Positions 10,599 to 14,869 of a DNA stretch of 63,229 nucleotides are shown here, piece by piece. Position 1 is the first letter of the stretch; each line of letters begins with the position of its first letter. This DNA is from a virus (taxonomy: Duplodnaviria > Caudoviricetes): IMG/VR virus record IMGVR_UViG_3300046004_000392, positions 1-63,229 of that record; one strand, given 5' to 3'. Under the pieces are notes generated by a model that ran no database searches, was not told where the DNA came from, and was given only the letters and a program-made list of their open reading frames with translations. The position numbers and the translations under genes were made by a program.

Positions 10599-10627
10599 AA
10601 AAGGGCTCACTTCGGTGGGCCTTTTTT
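10599..10627 (+). terminator. Intrinsic terminator after MCP
   Basis: GGGCTCAC-TTCG-GTGGGCCT followed by a T run. Confidence 0.85.
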
Positions 10628-10716
10628 AATGGTTTTCTCTATGGTGATATGTACAGAAAAGCGCAGAATTCGTACATGTACATAATGACGTGTACAAATT
10701 TTAAAGGATTATAATC

Positions 10717-10788
10717 ATGTGGACATCACCAGCAGCTACTGAAATGCGTTTCGGTTTTGAAGTAACAATGTACGTAATGAACAAATAG
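10717..10788 (+). CDS. pqqA: Coenzyme PQQ precursor peptide PqqA (MWTSPAATEMRFGFEVTMYVMNK)
   Basis: 23-aa ORF with AAGGA SD; MW-x-x-P leader, RFGFE and the E-x-x-x-Y core that becomes PQQ. Confidence 0.95.
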   Translation: MWTSPAATEMRFGFEVTMYVMNK

Positions 10789-10808
10789 TCTAAACATTTG
10801 TTTAAACA

Positions 10809-10898
10809 TAGGCGGTTAAGCCGACACTAGAGGATGTAGTAAGTAACGAGTTTTTCGGCTTTCTGCGTTACATGTAACAACTACCAAATCTACGCCTA
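10809..10898 (+). ncRNA. Candidate structured RNA 3' of pqqA
   Basis: Nested pairings TAGGCG/CGCCTA, TAGA/TCTA, GTAGT/ACTAC, GTAACG/CGTTAC. Confidence 0.35.
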
Positions 10899-11267
10899 CC
10901 TTTCTGTAATTAGGCCTTCTTTTAATTTACGTTCTTCGTGATGGTGTTTGCGGTGACAATTAGCGCATAGCACTATGCATTTGGCTTCTATTTCTTCGCG
11001 GGCTATCTTATAAGCTCCGTTCTGAACTAATTCACTTATCTTTCTATTGGCGGGATCGGGTACTACGTGGTGGAAGTCTAATGCTGCCGGGTGGTTTTCA
11101 CCGCAGTTGGCACACGCTAACGAGGCTTTATAGTTTTCCCATTGGATTCTTTTCTTTATCTTACCTAACCTAATTCGTTCTATCTGAGCTGGCTTATTAC
11201 TGTCGTAGTGCTTCTTAGAATATAGCTTTGCTTTTGCCTTGCGAACTTCTAGGTCTTTGTAGGGCAT
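10896..11267 (-). CDS. HNH endonuclease (Zn-binding), antisense within the late arm
   Basis: CANC...LDFHH...CANCHRKHH; likely start MPYKD at 11267 with GGAG SD. Confidence 0.85.
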   Translation of the reverse strand: MPYKDLEVRKAKAKLYSKKHYDSNKPAQIERIRLGKIKKRIQWENYKASLACANCGENHPAALDFHHVVPDPANRKISELVQNGAYKIAREEIEAKCIVLCANCHRKHHHEERKLKEGLITER

Positions 11268-11285
11268 AAATACTCCACTAATCTG

Positions 11286-11314
11286 TTGACACCAAAACAA
11301 TAACATAGTATAAA
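11286..11314 (+). promoter_or_regulatory. Sigma70 promoter
   Basis: TTGACA-N17-TATAAA; predicted start ~11321. Confidence 0.7.
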
Positions 11315-11320
11315 GACTGT

Positions 11321-11400
11321 ATCAACCGGGAAATTAAATCCGGCTCATTAGACTGCCCCGGCGGACGCATACAAGACTAATGAGCTTACTTTGTATGGAG
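11321..11400 (+). ncRNA. Candidate double-pseudoknot cis-regulatory leader RNA
   Basis: Three crossing helices: 11326-30/11357-61, 11343-51/11377-85, 11368-75/11390-97; the last abuts the GGAG SD. Confidence 0.55.
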
Positions 11401-11408
11401 AAATTCAA

Positions 11409-11864
11409 ATGGCATTTACCACATTCAGCGGTCCAGTTCGTTCATTAGCAGGTTTCGTAGAACCTGTAATATACATCAAAGCTACAGACGTAGTATCAGG
11501 TGCAGTTAATGTTTCTGCAACAGGTAACATCGTAATCCTTTCACCAGCAGATGGTGGCCCAGCTTCAACATGTACATTAGTATTACCAGAAGTAGTAAGC
11601 GGTGATTTCACCCTAACTTCACAACCAGCCGATGCTCGTTACAATGGCGCTAAAGGTACTATCTTGAACTACGGCGCAGTTGATCACGTTTTAGGCGGCT
11701 ACGGCACTAATGACTCAACATCAACAGCAGGCCAAAAAGTTAACGGCTCTACAGCTGGTGTAGTTATCCCCGCAGGTTACGGCGTTCAATTCGGTGGTAA
11801 TGGTAACGACGCAGCACCTTGGGCCGCTACTAACTCAGTATTGTCCACAGCTAACACATTCTAA
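11409..11864 (+). CDS. Putative virion structural protein (MAFTTFSGPVRS...)
   Basis: ATG at 11409 after GGAG; beta-rich, G/T/A-rich. Confidence 0.7.
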   Translation: MAFTTFSGPVRSLAGFVEPVIYIKATDVVSGAVNVSATGNIVILSPADGGPASTCTLVLPEVVSGDFTLTSQPADARYNGAKGTILNYGAVDHVLGGYGTNDSTSTAGQKVNGSTAGVVIPAGYGVQFGGNGNDAAPWAATNSVLSTANTF

Positions 11865-11872
11865 TTAATCTT

Positions 11873-11886
11873 GGGGCTTCGGCCCC
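11873..11886 (+). other. GC hairpin with UUCG loop, no U tract
   Basis: GGGGC-TTCG-GCCCC in intergenic space. Confidence 0.5.
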
Positions 11887-11910
11887 GCTTACAATCTAAG
11901 GAGATTAATT

Positions 11911-13471: not shown

Positions 13472-13816
13472 ATGGCTGACAATAAAGCAAAACCAGTAAA
13501 CGTAAAACCAGTTAAATCTGAAGCAACTGACGAAGATTATACGCCTCCTGATATTAAGGATAAGCTACAAGACATGAAGAACAAAAAAGCTGCTGAGAAG
13601 TATGAAGCAACTAAATCATACAAAAAAGGTGGCGATGTAAAATCTGATTTAGCCCAAGATAAAAAGATGGTTAAGAAAGCAGTAAAGATGCATGATGACC
13701 AACTACACGGCGGCAAAAAGACTAACCTTAAATCACTAAAAAGCGGCGGCTGTACTAAAATGGCTCGTGGCGGCGGTATTGAAGTTCGCGGTAAAACCCG
13801 CGGGAAGATGTGTTAA
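13472..13816 (+). CDS. Small basic protein (YKKGG, MARGG, RGKTRG)
   Basis: AAGGA SD; Lys-rich. Confidence 0.7.
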   Translation: MADNKAKPVNVKPVKSEATDEDYTPPDIKDKLQDMKNKKAAEKYEATKSYKKGGDVKSDLAQDKKMVKKAVKMHDDQLHGGKKTNLKSLKSGGCTKMARGGGIEVRGKTRGKMC

Positions 13817-13818
13817 TT

Positions 13819-14202
13819 ATGGCTACGTATGCTGGGGCTGAGAGTTGGAATGACAACACTAAGAAAGACGCTAAAACACTAGCTAAGCTAGAAAAAAATA
13901 AAGCTAAAATGGAAGGCGCATTTTATTCTACTGGAAGTAAAGCGGTTACAAAAAAAGAAGTTGACGCTGAAGAGCACGCTAGAAATAAACTGTTAAATTT
14001 TAACGAGACAGAGCAAGAATATTTAAAGCAACGAATTTTAAACGAGTACCCTAAAGATACAGAAGATGGTGAAGGACGTAAGTCAAAAAATACGCAGGGG
14101 TATGGTAAAGAGCCGGTAGTAAAAAACGCTAGAGGCGGTTCAATAAGTTCAGCATCTAAACGTGCTGATGGTTGCGCAATGCGCGGAAAGACAAGGGCAT
14201 AA
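13819..14202 (+). CDS. Small charged protein (NARGG, RADGCAMRGKTRA)
   Basis: Likely start ATG 13819. Confidence 0.65.
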   Translation: MATYAGAESWNDNTKKDAKTLAKLEKNKAKMEGAFYSTGSKAVTKKEVDAEEHARNKLLNFNETEQEYLKQRILNEYPKDTEDGEGRKSKNTQGYGKEPVVKNARGGSISSASKRADGCAMRGKTRA

Positions 14203-14203
14203 T

Positions 14204-14869
14204 ATGAAAGACTACGACGTATGGGAAAAGTATCTAGCTGACAAAGCCGCTGGTAAAAAAGCGAAAGAGGAAGCTAAATACGAAGCTGGTAAACGTGCAT
14301 TAGATTCTAAGTACGACCAGAAAAAGAAATCTGAAGAGATTGCTAAAGCAGCTAAGCTGAAGATGGCTAACGATGCTGTTGAGTCACATCGCCGTGCGGG
14401 TAATCTTGCTGGTGGTAAACCACAATACGTTATAGACAACGAGAAACGTATTAAAGATTGGGAAGCTAAGCAATCTGCTAAAAAAGCAGACGACAAGTCA
14501 ACAAAAGTAACTAAGAAAGAAGTTACTGTAGAGACTCCTACAGGCAACATCGGTTCACGTAATAGCTTTGATGCAGGTGAAGTTAGCCCATTTGCCAACC
14601 GCAAAGCAGAAGCAATTGCTGAGAAAGTAATTGACTACCCATCACGTACAGCTGACGAAGTAGTTGAAAAAATCACGGAAGCAAAAGCAGCTGATGAACC
14701 TAGGTTTAGCGCTAACAACCCAATGGGTATGAAAAAAGGCGGTAGCGTACGAGCAAAACCTAAAGCTAAAGCTAAATGTATGGCATCTGGTGGTTCTACC
14801 TCATCAAGAGCATCATCTCGTGGTGACGGCTGTGCACAACGCGGCAAAACTAGAGGACGGATGGTATAA
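14204..14869 (+). CDS. Basic protein (MKKGG, MASGG, RGDGCAQRGKTRG)
   Basis: Likely start ATG 14204. Confidence 0.7.
   Translation: MKDYDVWEKYLADKAAGKKAKEEAKYEAGKRALDSKYDQKKKSEEIAKAAKLKMANDAVESHRRAGNLAGGKPQYVIDNEKRIKDWEAKQSAKKADDKSTKVTKKEVTVETPTGNIGSRNSFDAGEVSPFANRKAEAIAEKVIDYPSRTADEVVEKITEAKAADEPRFSANNPMGMKKGGSVRAKPKAKAKCMASGGSTSSRASSRGDGCAQRGKTRGRMV

What the first reader, a model, noticed from the sequence alone, without database searches (positions are those of the whole stretch)
11321..11411. Compact double-pseudoknot leader RNA touching the SD of a virion gene
Seen: a near-consensus promoter (11286-11314) predicts a ~90-nt leader. Its main 9-bp stem is GCTCATTAG/CTAATGAGC. One loop segment (CCCGG 11357-61) pairs back with the 5' end (CCGGG 11326-30). 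A second loop segment (CATACAAG 11368-75) pairs forward with TTTGTATG (11390-97), which includes the first G of the GGAG SD. A short CTG/CGG helix and three GAC triplets sit at the junctions. Three crossing helices in 75 nt look unlikely by chance. I do not recognise it as a known riboswitch or ribozyme class. Inference: an undescribed riboswitch-like or protein-binding translational switch, or a small ribozyme, controlling late structural genes.
Basis: partly seen in the sequence, partly recalled or inferred. Interest (0 to 1): 0.78.

Follow-up and report, generated by a model that had tools for sequence, protein, structure and literature searches.

The report
Knotted leader RNA of post-capsid gene
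The 75 bases in front of the gene that follows the capsid gene fold into a conserved, doubly knotted RNA that runs from the likely transcript start to the ribosome-binding site, recurs in well over a hundred lake and ocean phages including cultured SAR11 phages, is in no RNA catalogue searched, and probably sets how much of a virion surface protein is made.

Summary
The evidence comes from 132 distinct copies taken from 145 related loci. The helices are a 9-bp stem P1, a 3-bp hairpin P2, a pseudoknot PK-A and a pseudoknot PK-B.

- **PK-A** pairs the P2 loop with the 5' end. It has at least 5 Watson-Crick pairs in 129 of 132 copies.
- **PK-B** pairs a junction strand with the stretch just before the Shine-Dalgarno (SD). 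It is present in 87 of 132 copies.

Five junction bases are invariant. No Rfam family matches, including Mu-gpT-DE (RF03012), which occupies the same genomic position.

The element always lies on the gene strand. It follows a Mu-gpT-like capsid gene and precedes ORFs that share only a 16-residue N-terminal peptide. In most copies it starts 7-9 nt after a -10-like hexamer, and it ends at or within 3 nt of the SD.

Two cultured pelagiphages, HTVC023P and HTVC027P, carry it.

The function is inferred, not shown. My reading is a whole-leader translational gate that also buries the mRNA 5' end. Riboswitch, protein operator, pure stabiliser and ribozyme all remain open.

This scan has already followed up the same motif twice on other DNA (e1-5947772, e1-5920458).

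The parts
11286..11314 (+). sigma-70-like promoter: TTGACA (11286-91), 17-nt spacer, TATAAA (11309-14). The predicted start is about 11321-11322.
   Evidence: Read. The same hexamers and spacing occur in relatives L002, L008, L057, L059 and L067. Across 129 distinct upstream contexts, a -10-like hexamer lies 5-10 nt before PK-A in 72, against 9 at a control offset. No transcription start has been mapped.
11326..11330 (+). PK-A 5' strand (CCGGG). It pairs with the P2 loop.
   Evidence: About 11 pair types were seen, for example CCGGG/CCCGG, CTGGG/CCCAG, CTAGG/CCTAG, CTGAG/CTCAG, GGAAG/CTTCC and CTATAC/GTATAG.
11331..11342 (+). Variable linker, 6-16 nt in relatives. In this clade 11339-11343 could pair with the PK-A 5' strand instead (P0).
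   Evidence: One search gives the linker lengths. P0 is not enriched overall, but is present in 16 of 22 copies of the CCGGG and CCAGG types.
11343..11351 (+). P1 5' strand
   Evidence: All 9 pairs show compensatory changes. RNAalifold found 6 of them unaided.
11352..11352 (+). J1/2, a single A
11353..11364 (+). P2 hairpin: CTG (11353-55), a 6-nt loop (11356-61) whose bases 11357-61 form the PK-A 3' strand, and CGG (11362-64).
   Evidence: P2 is 90-98% paired. It lengthens to 6 bp with a 14-nt loop in the L012 group.
11365..11367 (+). J2/B (ACG). A11365 and C11366 are invariant.
   Evidence: Invariant columns of the 60-sequence MAFFT alignment.
11368..11373 (+). PK-B 5' strand, the Watson-Crick core CATACA
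   Evidence: There are 26 pair types among the 87 copies that have it.
11374..11376 (+). JB/1 (AGA), invariant. In the window A11374 and G11375 can extend PK-B by A-U and G-U.
   Evidence: invariant. These two pairs are not kept in many relatives.
11377..11385 (+). P1 3' strand
11390..11397 (+). PK-B 3' strand (core 11392-11397). Its last base is the first G of the SD.
11397..11400 (+). Shine-Dalgarno GGAG, 8 nt before the start codon
11409..11864 (+). Regulated ORF of 151 aa. It has a conserved N-terminal peptide and a beta-rich, spike-like domain.
   Evidence: No Pfam or PHROG family matches.
11873..11886 (+). 3' hairpin GGGGC-TTCG-GCCCC just after the stop codon, with no T-run behind it
   Evidence: Read. 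No function has been tested.

Best explanation
This is a cis-acting structured 5' leader of the mRNA for the gene after the capsid gene.

**The fold.** Three helices meet at a tight junction.
- P1 is the closing stem.
- P2 is a mini-hairpin.
- The third helix, PK-B, forms between a junction strand and the 3' tail that runs into the SD.
- The P2 loop pairs with the first bases of the transcript (PK-A).

The whole untranslated region is therefore one compact knot.

**Proposed action (inferred).**
1. PK-B holds the bases at and just 5' of the SD in a helix. The knot then sits on the ribosome's platform side and limits or sets the rate of 30S binding.
2. PK-A leaves no free 5' end for 5'-end-dependent decay.

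Together these would fix, and perhaps gate, the output of one abundant virion surface protein relative to the capsid protein.

**What is shown and what is not.** The four helices, the RNA strand, the position and the gene linkage are shown. Any effect on translation or stability, and any partner that opens or locks the knot, are inferred.
For: **Structure**
- Covariation supports P1, P2 and PK-A, and PK-B in two thirds of copies.
- In P1, G-U cells outnumber A-C cells 39 to 13. This points to RNA of the gene strand.

**Position**
- All 145 covariance-model (CM) matches in related loci lie on the gene strand directly upstream of the ORF.

**SD involvement is kept in three different ways**
- Among the 78 copies with both PK-B and a recognisable SD, PK-B overlaps the SD in 34, ends 0-3 nt before it in 32, and ends 5-6 nt before it in 12. 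Its 3' end lies 9-17 nt from the start codon, median 12.
- The L016 group puts CUCC opposite GGAG.
- The GCC[AG]AGAC subclass replaces PK-B with a small hairpin that carries the SD.

**5' end**
- -10-like hexamers peak 7-8 nt before PK-A. They occur at 5-10 nt in 72 of 129 contexts, against 9 of 129 at a control offset.
- The cultured phages HTVC023P and HTVC027P show the same spacing.

**Own transcription unit in the window**
- Promoter, leader, ORF and 3' hairpin are all present.

**Linkage**
- A DNA pattern chosen without regard to genes gave 80 listed loci. All 80 carry the full motif.
- Across all 145 motif loci, 134 have an ORF starting with the same N-terminal peptide.

**Transcription (weak)**
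- Contigs from lake RNA libraries cover the leader joined to the start codon, 11333-11413, as well as the ORF.
Against: - No experiment and no mapped transcript start exists. The RNA evidence is assembled contigs only, and these can contain DNA.
- In most copies the SD core itself stays unpaired, so occlusion may be mild. The knot could even enhance initiation.
- 45 of 132 copies lack PK-B as drawn.
- 36 of 129 contexts have a GC-rich hairpin and no -10-like hexamer just upstream. In those, the RNA 5' end is probably not at PK-A.
- Simple 5' protection would not need five invariant junction bases. That hints at a partner or ligand I cannot name.
- No general alternative conformation was found.
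Confidence: 0.55

Rival explanations
1. Small-molecule or ion riboswitch. On this reading the junction with its invariant A, AC and AGA is a ligand pocket. Ligand binding would lock PK-A and PK-B and change SD access.
For: - The core is a compact multi-helix fold with few, strictly invariant, unpaired junction bases.
- The same core is joined to at least three different SD arrangements, as riboswitch aptamers are joined to varied expression platforms.
- It occurs in phages of unrelated hosts, namely SAR11 and Methylophilales-type phages. That fits a universal ligand.
Against: - It is linked to a single virion gene of no metabolic meaning, so no ligand suggests itself.
- No conserved mutually exclusive fold was found.
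- No Rfam riboswitch matches.
Confidence: 0.18
2. Protein-bound translational operator. A phage protein (the ORF's own product, free capsid protein, or another late protein) or a host protein would bind the knot and repress or activate initiation. This would resemble T4 gp32 or the ribosomal-protein S15 and S4 leaders.
For: - The leader pseudoknot abuts the SD.
- The RNA is strictly co-inherited with a conserved 16-residue N-terminal peptide and with a conserved capsid gene, while the rest of the ORF diverges into at least 15 clusters.
- Feedback from unassembled subunits is an established logic for phage structural proteins. This point is recalled, not looked up.
Against: - The downstream proteins are acidic: median pI 4.5, and 3 of 86 above pI 7.
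- The conserved N-terminal arm is explained more simply as the anchor to the conserved capsid.
- No RNA-binding domain was found.
Confidence: 0.15
3. Ligand-free mRNA stabiliser only. On this reading the knot exists to hide the 5' end and block 5'-end-dependent or scanning nucleases, with no role in initiation.
For: - The -10 spacing puts +1 within a few bases of PK-A.
- The layout is a self-contained promoter, ORF and 3' hairpin unit.
Against: - A simple terminal hairpin would do the job.
- The tight, variously maintained contact with the SD is then unexplained.
- 36 of 129 copies follow a hairpin with no -10-like hexamer.
Confidence: 0.08
4. Small self-cleaving ribozyme.
For: - It is a compact double pseudoknot with invariant junction purines.
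- Small ribozymes are often found in phage DNA. This point is recalled.
Against: - No match to any Rfam ribozyme family.
- Only about five invariant bases.
- The helix order does not fit HDV-like, hammerhead or twister cores. That is my own comparison from recalled consensus features.
- Fusion to the SD argues for gene control.
Confidence: 0.03
5. Not an RNA element at all: a DNA-level site such as an operator, a recombination site or a homing-endonuclease target, or a chance arrangement.
For: - The window clade has an HNH gene next to it.
- Inverted repeats could be protein sites.
Against: - Compensatory changes are seen in four interleaved helices, with dozens of pair types.
- G-U cells exceed A-C cells.
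- The strand is constant relative to the ORF.
- Most relatives have no HNH gene.
- In bacterial contigs, 73 of 80 listed pattern hits fail the model. The pattern alone therefore does not create the motif.
Confidence: 0.01

Closest known systems
Rfam RF03012, Mu-gpT-DE ('Mu gpT downstream element', Weinberg 2017 collection; function unknown).
   Same: The genomic position matches. The motif lies just downstream of a Mu-gpT-like major capsid gene. The window's capsid protein hits PF10124. A capsid homologue lies upstream on the same strand in 130 of 144 motif loci, with a median gap of 67 nt.
   Different: - The 53-position Rfam model does not score on the window at E<=10.
- It does not score on 16 diverse relatives at E<=1.
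- It does not score at the motif in HTVC023P, HTVC027P or two related complete virus records. The best hits there are 11 bits, elsewhere in the records, against a cut-off of 49.
- I could not fetch a true member to compare by eye. A distant relationship is therefore not excluded.
Pseudoknotted translational operators in mRNA leaders: T4 gene 32, E. coli rpsO (S15) and the alpha operon (S4). These are recalled; the T4 gene 32 case is mentioned in a passage of PMC10690425.
   Same: Both are 5'-leader pseudoknots that end at the ribosome-binding site of the regulated gene.
   Different: - Those are single H-type or nested pseudoknots with a known protein ligand. This one is a three-way junction with two pseudoknots that also takes in the 5' terminus.
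- It has no known ligand.
- Its gene product is acidic.
Small pseudoknot riboswitches with translational platforms: preQ1-II, SAM-II, SAM-V, fluoride (recalled).
   Same: Compact size, a few invariant unpaired bases, and a 3' pseudoknot strand at or in the SD.
   Different: No Rfam match. The helix topology differs. No metabolic gene context points to a ligand.
Flavivirus exoribonuclease-resistant RNAs (xrRNA; recalled).
   Same: A three-way junction in which both the 5' end and the 3' tail fold back as two pseudoknots. The size is about 70 nt and the junction bases are conserved.
   Different: - The partner elements are swapped. Here the hairpin loop pairs with the 5' end and a junction strand pairs with the 3' tail.
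- It lies in a 5' leader next to an SD, not in a 3' UTR.
- Nuclease resistance is untested.
- No Rfam xrRNA family matched.
The 5'-terminal stem-loop, strong SD and 3' terminator layout of highly expressed phage capsid genes such as T7 gene 10 (recalled).
   Same: A promoter is followed at once by a 5'-terminal structure, then SD, ORF and a 3' hairpin.
   Different: T7 uses a plain hairpin. Here the structure is a conserved double pseudoknot with invariant junction bases.

Membership tests
Rfam RF03012 Mu-gpT-DE | Scores at or above the family's gathering threshold (49 bits) with the Rfam covariance model | tested here: not met
   No match at E<=10 in the window or on the 101-nt element alone. 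None at E<=1 in 16 relatives. The best hits in related records are 11 bits and lie away from the motif. No positive control was found.
Rfam RF03012 Mu-gpT-DE | Lies downstream of a Mu-gpT-like major head gene (feature recalled from the family's name) | tested here: met
   The window's capsid protein hits PF10124. A capsid homologue lies upstream in 130 of 144 loci.
Riboswitch (any class) | Conserved aptamer-like fold supported by covariation, in a 5' leader | tested here: met
Riboswitch (any class) | Specific binding of a small ligand | not testable with these tools
   Needs in-line probing or ITC
Riboswitch (any class) | Conserved alternative (mutually exclusive) pairing of an expression platform | tested here: inconclusive
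   The P0 alternative is limited to one clade and is not enriched overall. The SD platforms do vary between subclasses.
Known self-cleaving ribozyme classes (hammerhead, twister, twister-sister, pistol, hatchet, HDV-like) | Match to the class covariance model | tested here: not met
   No such family at E<=10, at E<=1 in relatives, or at gathering score.
Self-cleaving ribozyme (new class) | Site-specific self-scission | not testable with these tools
   Needs a cleavage assay
Autogenous translational operator (gp32 / r-protein type) | Structured leader element at the ribosome-binding site of the regulated gene | tested here: met
Autogenous translational operator (gp32 / r-protein type) | The gene's own product binds the leader | not testable with these tools
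   The only indirect evidence is that the products are acidic, with median pI 4.5. That argues against binding but does not test it.
xrRNA-like nuclease-resistant knot | A three-way junction in which the 5' end and the 3' tail each form a pseudoknot with the core | tested here: met
   Topology from covariation. The partner elements differ from the flaviviral ones.
xrRNA-like nuclease-resistant knot | Blocks a 5'-to-3' nuclease | not testable with these tools
   Needs Xrn1, RNase J or RNase E assays
5'-terminal mRNA stabiliser | The structure begins within a few bases of the transcript's 5' end | tested here: inconclusive
   This is inferred only from -10 spacing, 72 of 129 against 9 of 129 at the control offset. 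36 copies follow a hairpin without a -10-like hexamer. No start has been mapped.

The most novel reading that the evidence does not exclude
A phage counterpart of viral xrRNAs. On this reading the element is a ligand-free, ring-like knot that threads or buries the transcript's own 5' end (PK-A) and is latched by the SD-proximal tail (PK-B). It would mechanically stop 5'-end-dependent or scanning ribonucleases, while the first ribosome that engages the SD can unlatch it. This would be a directional RNA roadblock in bacterial mRNA, used by the most abundant known group of ocean phages.
Probability: 0.12. Interest if true: 0.9.

Novelty: new variant of a known kind. Interest (0 to 1): 0.74.

Why it matters
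**A well-supported new RNA family**
- It has a three-way junction plus two pseudoknots and spans an entire 5' UTR.
- Unusually clean covariation supports it across at least 132 distinct sequences.
- It is absent from Rfam 15.

**Ecological reach**
- It is carried by relatives of the HTVC023P-type pelagiphages.
- It also occurs in lake phages of methylotroph type such as this window.

**Directly testable**
- Two cultured phage-host pairs carry it: HTVC023P and HTVC027P on HTCC1062.
- An infection RNA-seq time course already exists (PMC12753301).

**Possible pay-offs**
- A new riboswitch or operator class.
- A new RNA fold for structural work.
- A view of how streamlined phages set the ratio of capsid protein to capsid-surface protein.
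- A compact, portable expression-control part.

Tried and rejected
**RNA family and structure checks**
- **Rfam.** Five scans gave only irrelevant weak hits (and RF03012 alone). These were Atu_At1 at 10805-10898 (E = 6.3), Histone3 and BSR0709 away from the motif in L067, and an IRES_APC fragment on the minus strand.
- **Positive control for RF03012.** I looked in four bacterial genomes and in 151 Burkholderiales genomes and found none. The comparison with that family therefore rests on its model only.
- **Single-sequence folding.** It was not significant (z = -1.0). I rejected it as evidence either way.
- **Alternative 5' hairpin P0** that would compete with PK-A. It is conserved with a triple coordinated change in the CCAGG clade (L073, L134) but not enriched overall. 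I rejected it as a general switch.
- **HDV-like, hammerhead and twister helix orders.** I compared these by eye against recalled consensus features and rejected them.

**Protein and isolate searches**
- The window protein found no isolate by tblastn. Neither did L092's protein.
- blastn of a motif against isolates gave only chance hits at E>=1.
- Foldseek against PDB gave nothing at E<=0.001.
- Pfam and PHROGs give no function for the ORF family.

**RNA runs**
- All runs are contigs. They show no starts, ends or strand. Depth sums related strains and may include DNA.
- The low cover over the HNH gene and the higher cover over the leader are not used as evidence.

**Literature**
- Searches found no description of this element.
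It may well contain this element.
- The supplements of PMC12753301 may hold expression values for HTVC027P gp62, but I could not see them.

- Complex prediction, the look-up of encoding contigs, the listing of cluster members, the search of protein representatives, the protein-atlas search, the search of solved structures.
Full report
**What is in the window**

The window is a complete 63,229-bp virus record with direct terminal repeats. The finding lies in the 143-nt gap between two genes.
- On the minus strand is an HNH endonuclease gene. Its likely start is the ATG at 11266, which has its own SD.
- On the plus strand is a 151-codon ORF starting at 11409.

- **Promoter:** TTGACA (11286-91), a 17-nt spacer, TATAAA (11309-14).
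- **P1:** a perfect 9-bp stem, 11343-51 with 11377-85.
- **P2:** a 3-bp mini-hairpin, 11353-55 with 11362-64.
- **PK-A:** 11326-30 pairs with the P2 loop at 11357-61.
- **PK-B:** 11368-75 pairs with 11390-97. The last base of PK-B is the first G of the GGAG SD.

The three GAC triplets are not a repeat as such. Each is the closing G of one helix, a junction A, and the first C of the next helix.

Folded alone, the sequence is unremarkable. The z-score is -1.0, and 33 of 200 shuffles fold as well. The window copy by itself therefore proves nothing.

**Relatives**

The ORF has 216 homologues at E<=0.001 among 289 candidates in the large protein collection. I fetched DNA for three sets.
- 8 close loci.
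- 43 viral loci.
- 31 metagenome loci.

Every one of these loci that retains enough upstream DNA carries the element. A covariance model built only from P1 and P2 (R1) hit 65 of 70 sources. The five misses (L065, L066, L075, L076, L079) are cut by a contig end at or just before the ORF start. The window holds exactly one copy.

I then searched by RNA alone. A 16-base degenerate pattern from the P2/junction core was scanned over the viral collection.
- All 80 contain a full R1 match at E<=0.002.

The same pattern in 596 Gb of bacterial contigs also reached the limit. There the outcome was different.
- Only 5 of the 80 listed loci pass the model at E<=4e-8. All five are MAG or draft contigs.
- 2 are marginal and 73 fail.

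This is a useful control: the pattern alone does not make the motif.

**Covariation**

- On a plain MAFFT alignment of 60 distinct leaders, made without any structure, P1 is 84-86% paired and P2 90%. All P1 pairs change on both sides. Overall, cells are 70.7% paired against 57.8% in shuffles, with 0 of 500 shuffles reaching the observed value.
- RNAalifold on that alignment finds six P1 pairs unaided, and all six show compensatory changes.
- On the R1-fitted alignment, in which the pseudoknots were not modelled, PK-A is 93.4% paired and 4 of its 5 pairs change on both sides.
- On the pattern-derived set, PK-A is 97.7% paired and P1 92%. There P2 and two PK-A columns were fixed by the search pattern, so they say nothing.
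- Sliding the 3' partners by 1-3 columns drops pairing to 26-46% in all three counts.

PK-B shifts register between subgroups, so I tested both pseudoknots without an alignment. Among 132 distinct sequences:
- **PK-A.** The P2 loop has at least 5 contiguous Watson-Crick pairs with the 5' region in 129. Shuffled 5' regions give a mean of 4.0 and a maximum of 9. About 11 pair types occur.
- **PK-B.** The junction strand, with the invariant AGA excluded, has at least 5 pairs with the 3' tail in 87 and at least 6 in 73. Shuffles give means of 8.9 and 1.6. There are 26 pair types.
- **Mismatched pairings** between different types among the first 60 sequences rarely fit. PK-A reaches 5 pairs in 82 of 2,792 combinations. 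PK-B reaches 6 pairs in 20 of 3,280.
- **Wobble asymmetry.** In P1, G-U cells outnumber A-C cells 39 to 13. That fits RNA of the gene strand.

Five positions are invariant in the 60-sequence alignment. They are A11365 and C11366 between P2 and PK-B, and A11374, G11375 and A11376 before the P1 3' strand.

**Variation between members**

45 of 132 copies lack PK-B as drawn.
- About 40 form a subclass whose junction strand reads GCC[AG]AGAC. Its 3' tail instead forms a small A/U-rich hairpin that carries the SD in its loop or stem.
- The L016 group has CUCC opposite the GGAG.

Where both PK-B and an SD are recognisable (78 copies), PK-B relates to the SD as follows.
- It overlaps the SD by 1-3 nt in 34.
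- It ends 0-3 nt before the SD in 32.
- It ends 5-6 nt before the SD in 12.
- Its 3' end lies 9-17 nt from the start codon, median 12.

SD involvement is thus preserved in three different ways. That is my main reason for reading the element as a control of translation initiation rather than as a stabiliser only.

A possible competing hairpin for the PK-A 5' strand (P0) exists in the window's clade. It shows coordinated changes in the CCAGG clade. It is not enriched overall: 33 of 129 copies reach at least 4 bp, against a shuffle mean of 20.1 and maximum of 33.

**The 5' side**

Across 129 distinct upstream contexts, -10-like hexamers peak sharply 7-8 nt before the PK-A strand.
- 72 have one at 5-10 nt, against 9 at a control offset of 25-30 nt.
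- Only 12 also have a good -35.
- 46 have a GC-rich hairpin within 50 nt upstream, usually the capsid gene's terminator. Of these, 36 lack the -10-like hexamer.

HTVC023P has a terminator, then TATAAT, then 7 nt, then PK-A. HTVC027P has TTGCAC, 17 nt, TATAAA, 7 nt, then PK-A.

In most members the knot therefore starts at or within a few bases of the predicted +1. In a minority it must be reached by read-through or processing. No start site has been mapped.

Lake metatranscriptome libraries from one study hold 52-65% of the sampled words of 11200-11900. Their contigs cover the leader joined to the start codon (11333-11413) and the ORF. These are contigs only, and DNA carry-over is possible. I take this as a weak hint of transcription.

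**The gene it serves**

The ORF family has no Pfam or PHROG function.

The AlphaFold model has mean pLDDT 82. It shows a disordered N-terminal 16 residues and a beta-rich domain. Residues 17-145 align to domains of several phage virion proteins at Z 7.8-9.3, rmsd 2.2-2.7 A and 93-97 aligned residues. Unrelated rows score Z 3.3 or less. The matched proteins are:
- phage tailspike N-terminal regions;
- a baseplate protein;
- the Pa223 capsid spike.

The ORFs behind the motif have these properties.
- Their length ranges from 74 to 315 aa.
- Beyond residue 20 they fall into at least 15 BLAST clusters (62 proteins of at least 100 aa).
- 134 of the 145 loci start with the same peptide, M-A-x-[TS]-T-F-[SN]-G-P-V-[RK]-S-x-[AN]-G-F.
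- Third codon positions are free, carrying 0.16-0.6 bits against about 2 bits at positions 1 and 2. The peptide is therefore conserved as protein, not as RNA. My regular expression demanded part of this pattern, so those columns are enriched by construction.

A homologue of the window's Mu-gpT-like capsid protein lies upstream on the same strand in 130 of 144 loci. Of those 144, 135 have at least 900 nt of upstream DNA. The median gap is 67 nt.

The window's capsid protein is 64% identical to that of HTVC023P (E = 1e-150). The two downstream proteins share little beyond the N-terminus (E = 0.066).

My inference is that this is a fast-evolving virion surface (spike or decoration type) protein, anchored by a conserved N-terminal arm to a conserved capsid.

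These proteins are acidic: median pI 4.5, and 3 of 86 above pI 7. That lowers the odds that the product binds its own leader.

**What it is like, and what it is not**

No Rfam 15 family matches.
- Not the window at gathering score or at E<=10.
- Not 16 diverse relatives at E<=1.
- Not the 101-nt element searched alone.

Earlier follow-ups in this scan had already met the same motif on other DNA (e1-5947772 and e1-5920458). I reached these notes after my own analysis. One of them named Rfam RF03012 (Mu-gpT-DE) as the closest family.

The position fits that name. However, the 53-position model gives nothing on the window. It also gives nothing at the motif in HTVC023P, HTVC027P and two related complete records. 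I could not find a true member for comparison. I therefore do not file the element under RF03012, but I cannot exclude a distant relationship.

Functionally it most resembles three things:
- pseudoknotted translational operators and small pseudoknot riboswitches, because the 3' strand lies at the SD;
- viral xrRNAs in topology, because both tails fold back onto a three-way junction;
- T7 gene 10 in cassette layout.

All three comparisons are recalled, not tested.

**Literature**

Four searches found no description of this element.
- PMC10690425 (passages read) catalogues about 10,000 candidate viral RNAs in supplements that I could not open. The element may be listed there without a function.
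[quoted passage not shown] It also reports an HTVC027P infection transcriptome.
- PMC9599517 was seen as an abstract in a listing plus one passage.
- PMC7657543 was seen as one passage that lists RF03012.

**Verdict**

It is an uncatalogued, doubly pseudoknotted, SD-abutting leader, but 'switch', 'ligand' and 'ribozyme' are untested, and it serves one gene rather than the late genes at large.

| Reading | Odds |
|---|---|
| Whole-leader translational gate that also hides the 5' end | 0.55 |
| Riboswitch | 0.18 |
| Protein operator | 0.15 |
| Pure stabiliser | 0.08 |
| Ribozyme | 0.03 |
| DNA-level site or chance | 0.01 |

Noticed in passing
window 10717-10788 (wider match 10624-10787): This stretch matches non-coding or 'hypothetical' DNA of many unrelated Methylophilales phages at 79-86% identity. 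RNA-library contigs pile up here (summed depth 120-1197), but host pqqA copies may contribute.
   Followed up: partly
window 10896-11306, minus strand: An HNH endonuclease gene is the only antisense gene in this stretch (phrog_2255, E = 3e-20). It is wedged between pqqA and the promoter. It is present in the close relatives L002-L009 but absent in most others, where the motif follows the capsid terminator within about 25-150 nt.
   Followed up: partly
window 10599-10626: A strong intrinsic terminator-like hairpin (12 pairs, followed by a T-run) lies right after the capsid gene. Many relatives have an equivalent hairpin directly before the motif.
   Followed up: partly
window 11414->11891, 11422->11893, 11435->11862: Metatranscriptome contigs join the leader plus the first codons to the start of the next gene, skipping about 430-480 nt of the ORF body, with unknown letters in between. 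The likely cause is co-occurring strains with a different C-terminal domain. That would fit the modular design of constant N-terminus and variable body.
   Followed up: no
window 13472-14869: Several consecutive small Lys-rich ORFs end in a similar C-terminal G-x-x-x-R-G-K-T-R-like motif (translations).
   Followed up: no
window 10805-10898: A weak Rfam hit to the Rhizobiales sRNA Atu_At1 scores 17.8 bits against a threshold of 60 (E = 6.3), between pqqA and the HNH gene's 3' end. It is probably chance. Earlier notes on other genomes mention a 'structured RNA' after pqqA.
   Followed up: no
L206, L216, L232, L237, L242: Five contigs filed under bacterial MAGs or drafts carry full motif copies at R1 E<=4e-8. 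Their labels are Chitinophagales, Ignavibacteria, Microbacteriaceae, Kordiimonadaceae and a Gammaproteobacterium. They may be mis-binned phage contigs or prophages, and so say little about host range.
   Followed up: no
L111, L137, L160 and about 40 others (3' tail of the motif): In a subclass with junction strand GCC[AG]AGAC, PK-B is replaced by an A/U-rich mini-hairpin that carries the SD in its loop or stem. This could be a different expression platform on the same core.
   Followed up: partly
L101, L105, L139 (ORFs behind the motif): A variant N-terminus (M-A-V-H-F-T-G-P...) occurs with a body that weakly hits Pfam PF22237, SO2946-like C-terminal domain, at 23.8 bits against a cut-off of 27.
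   Followed up: no
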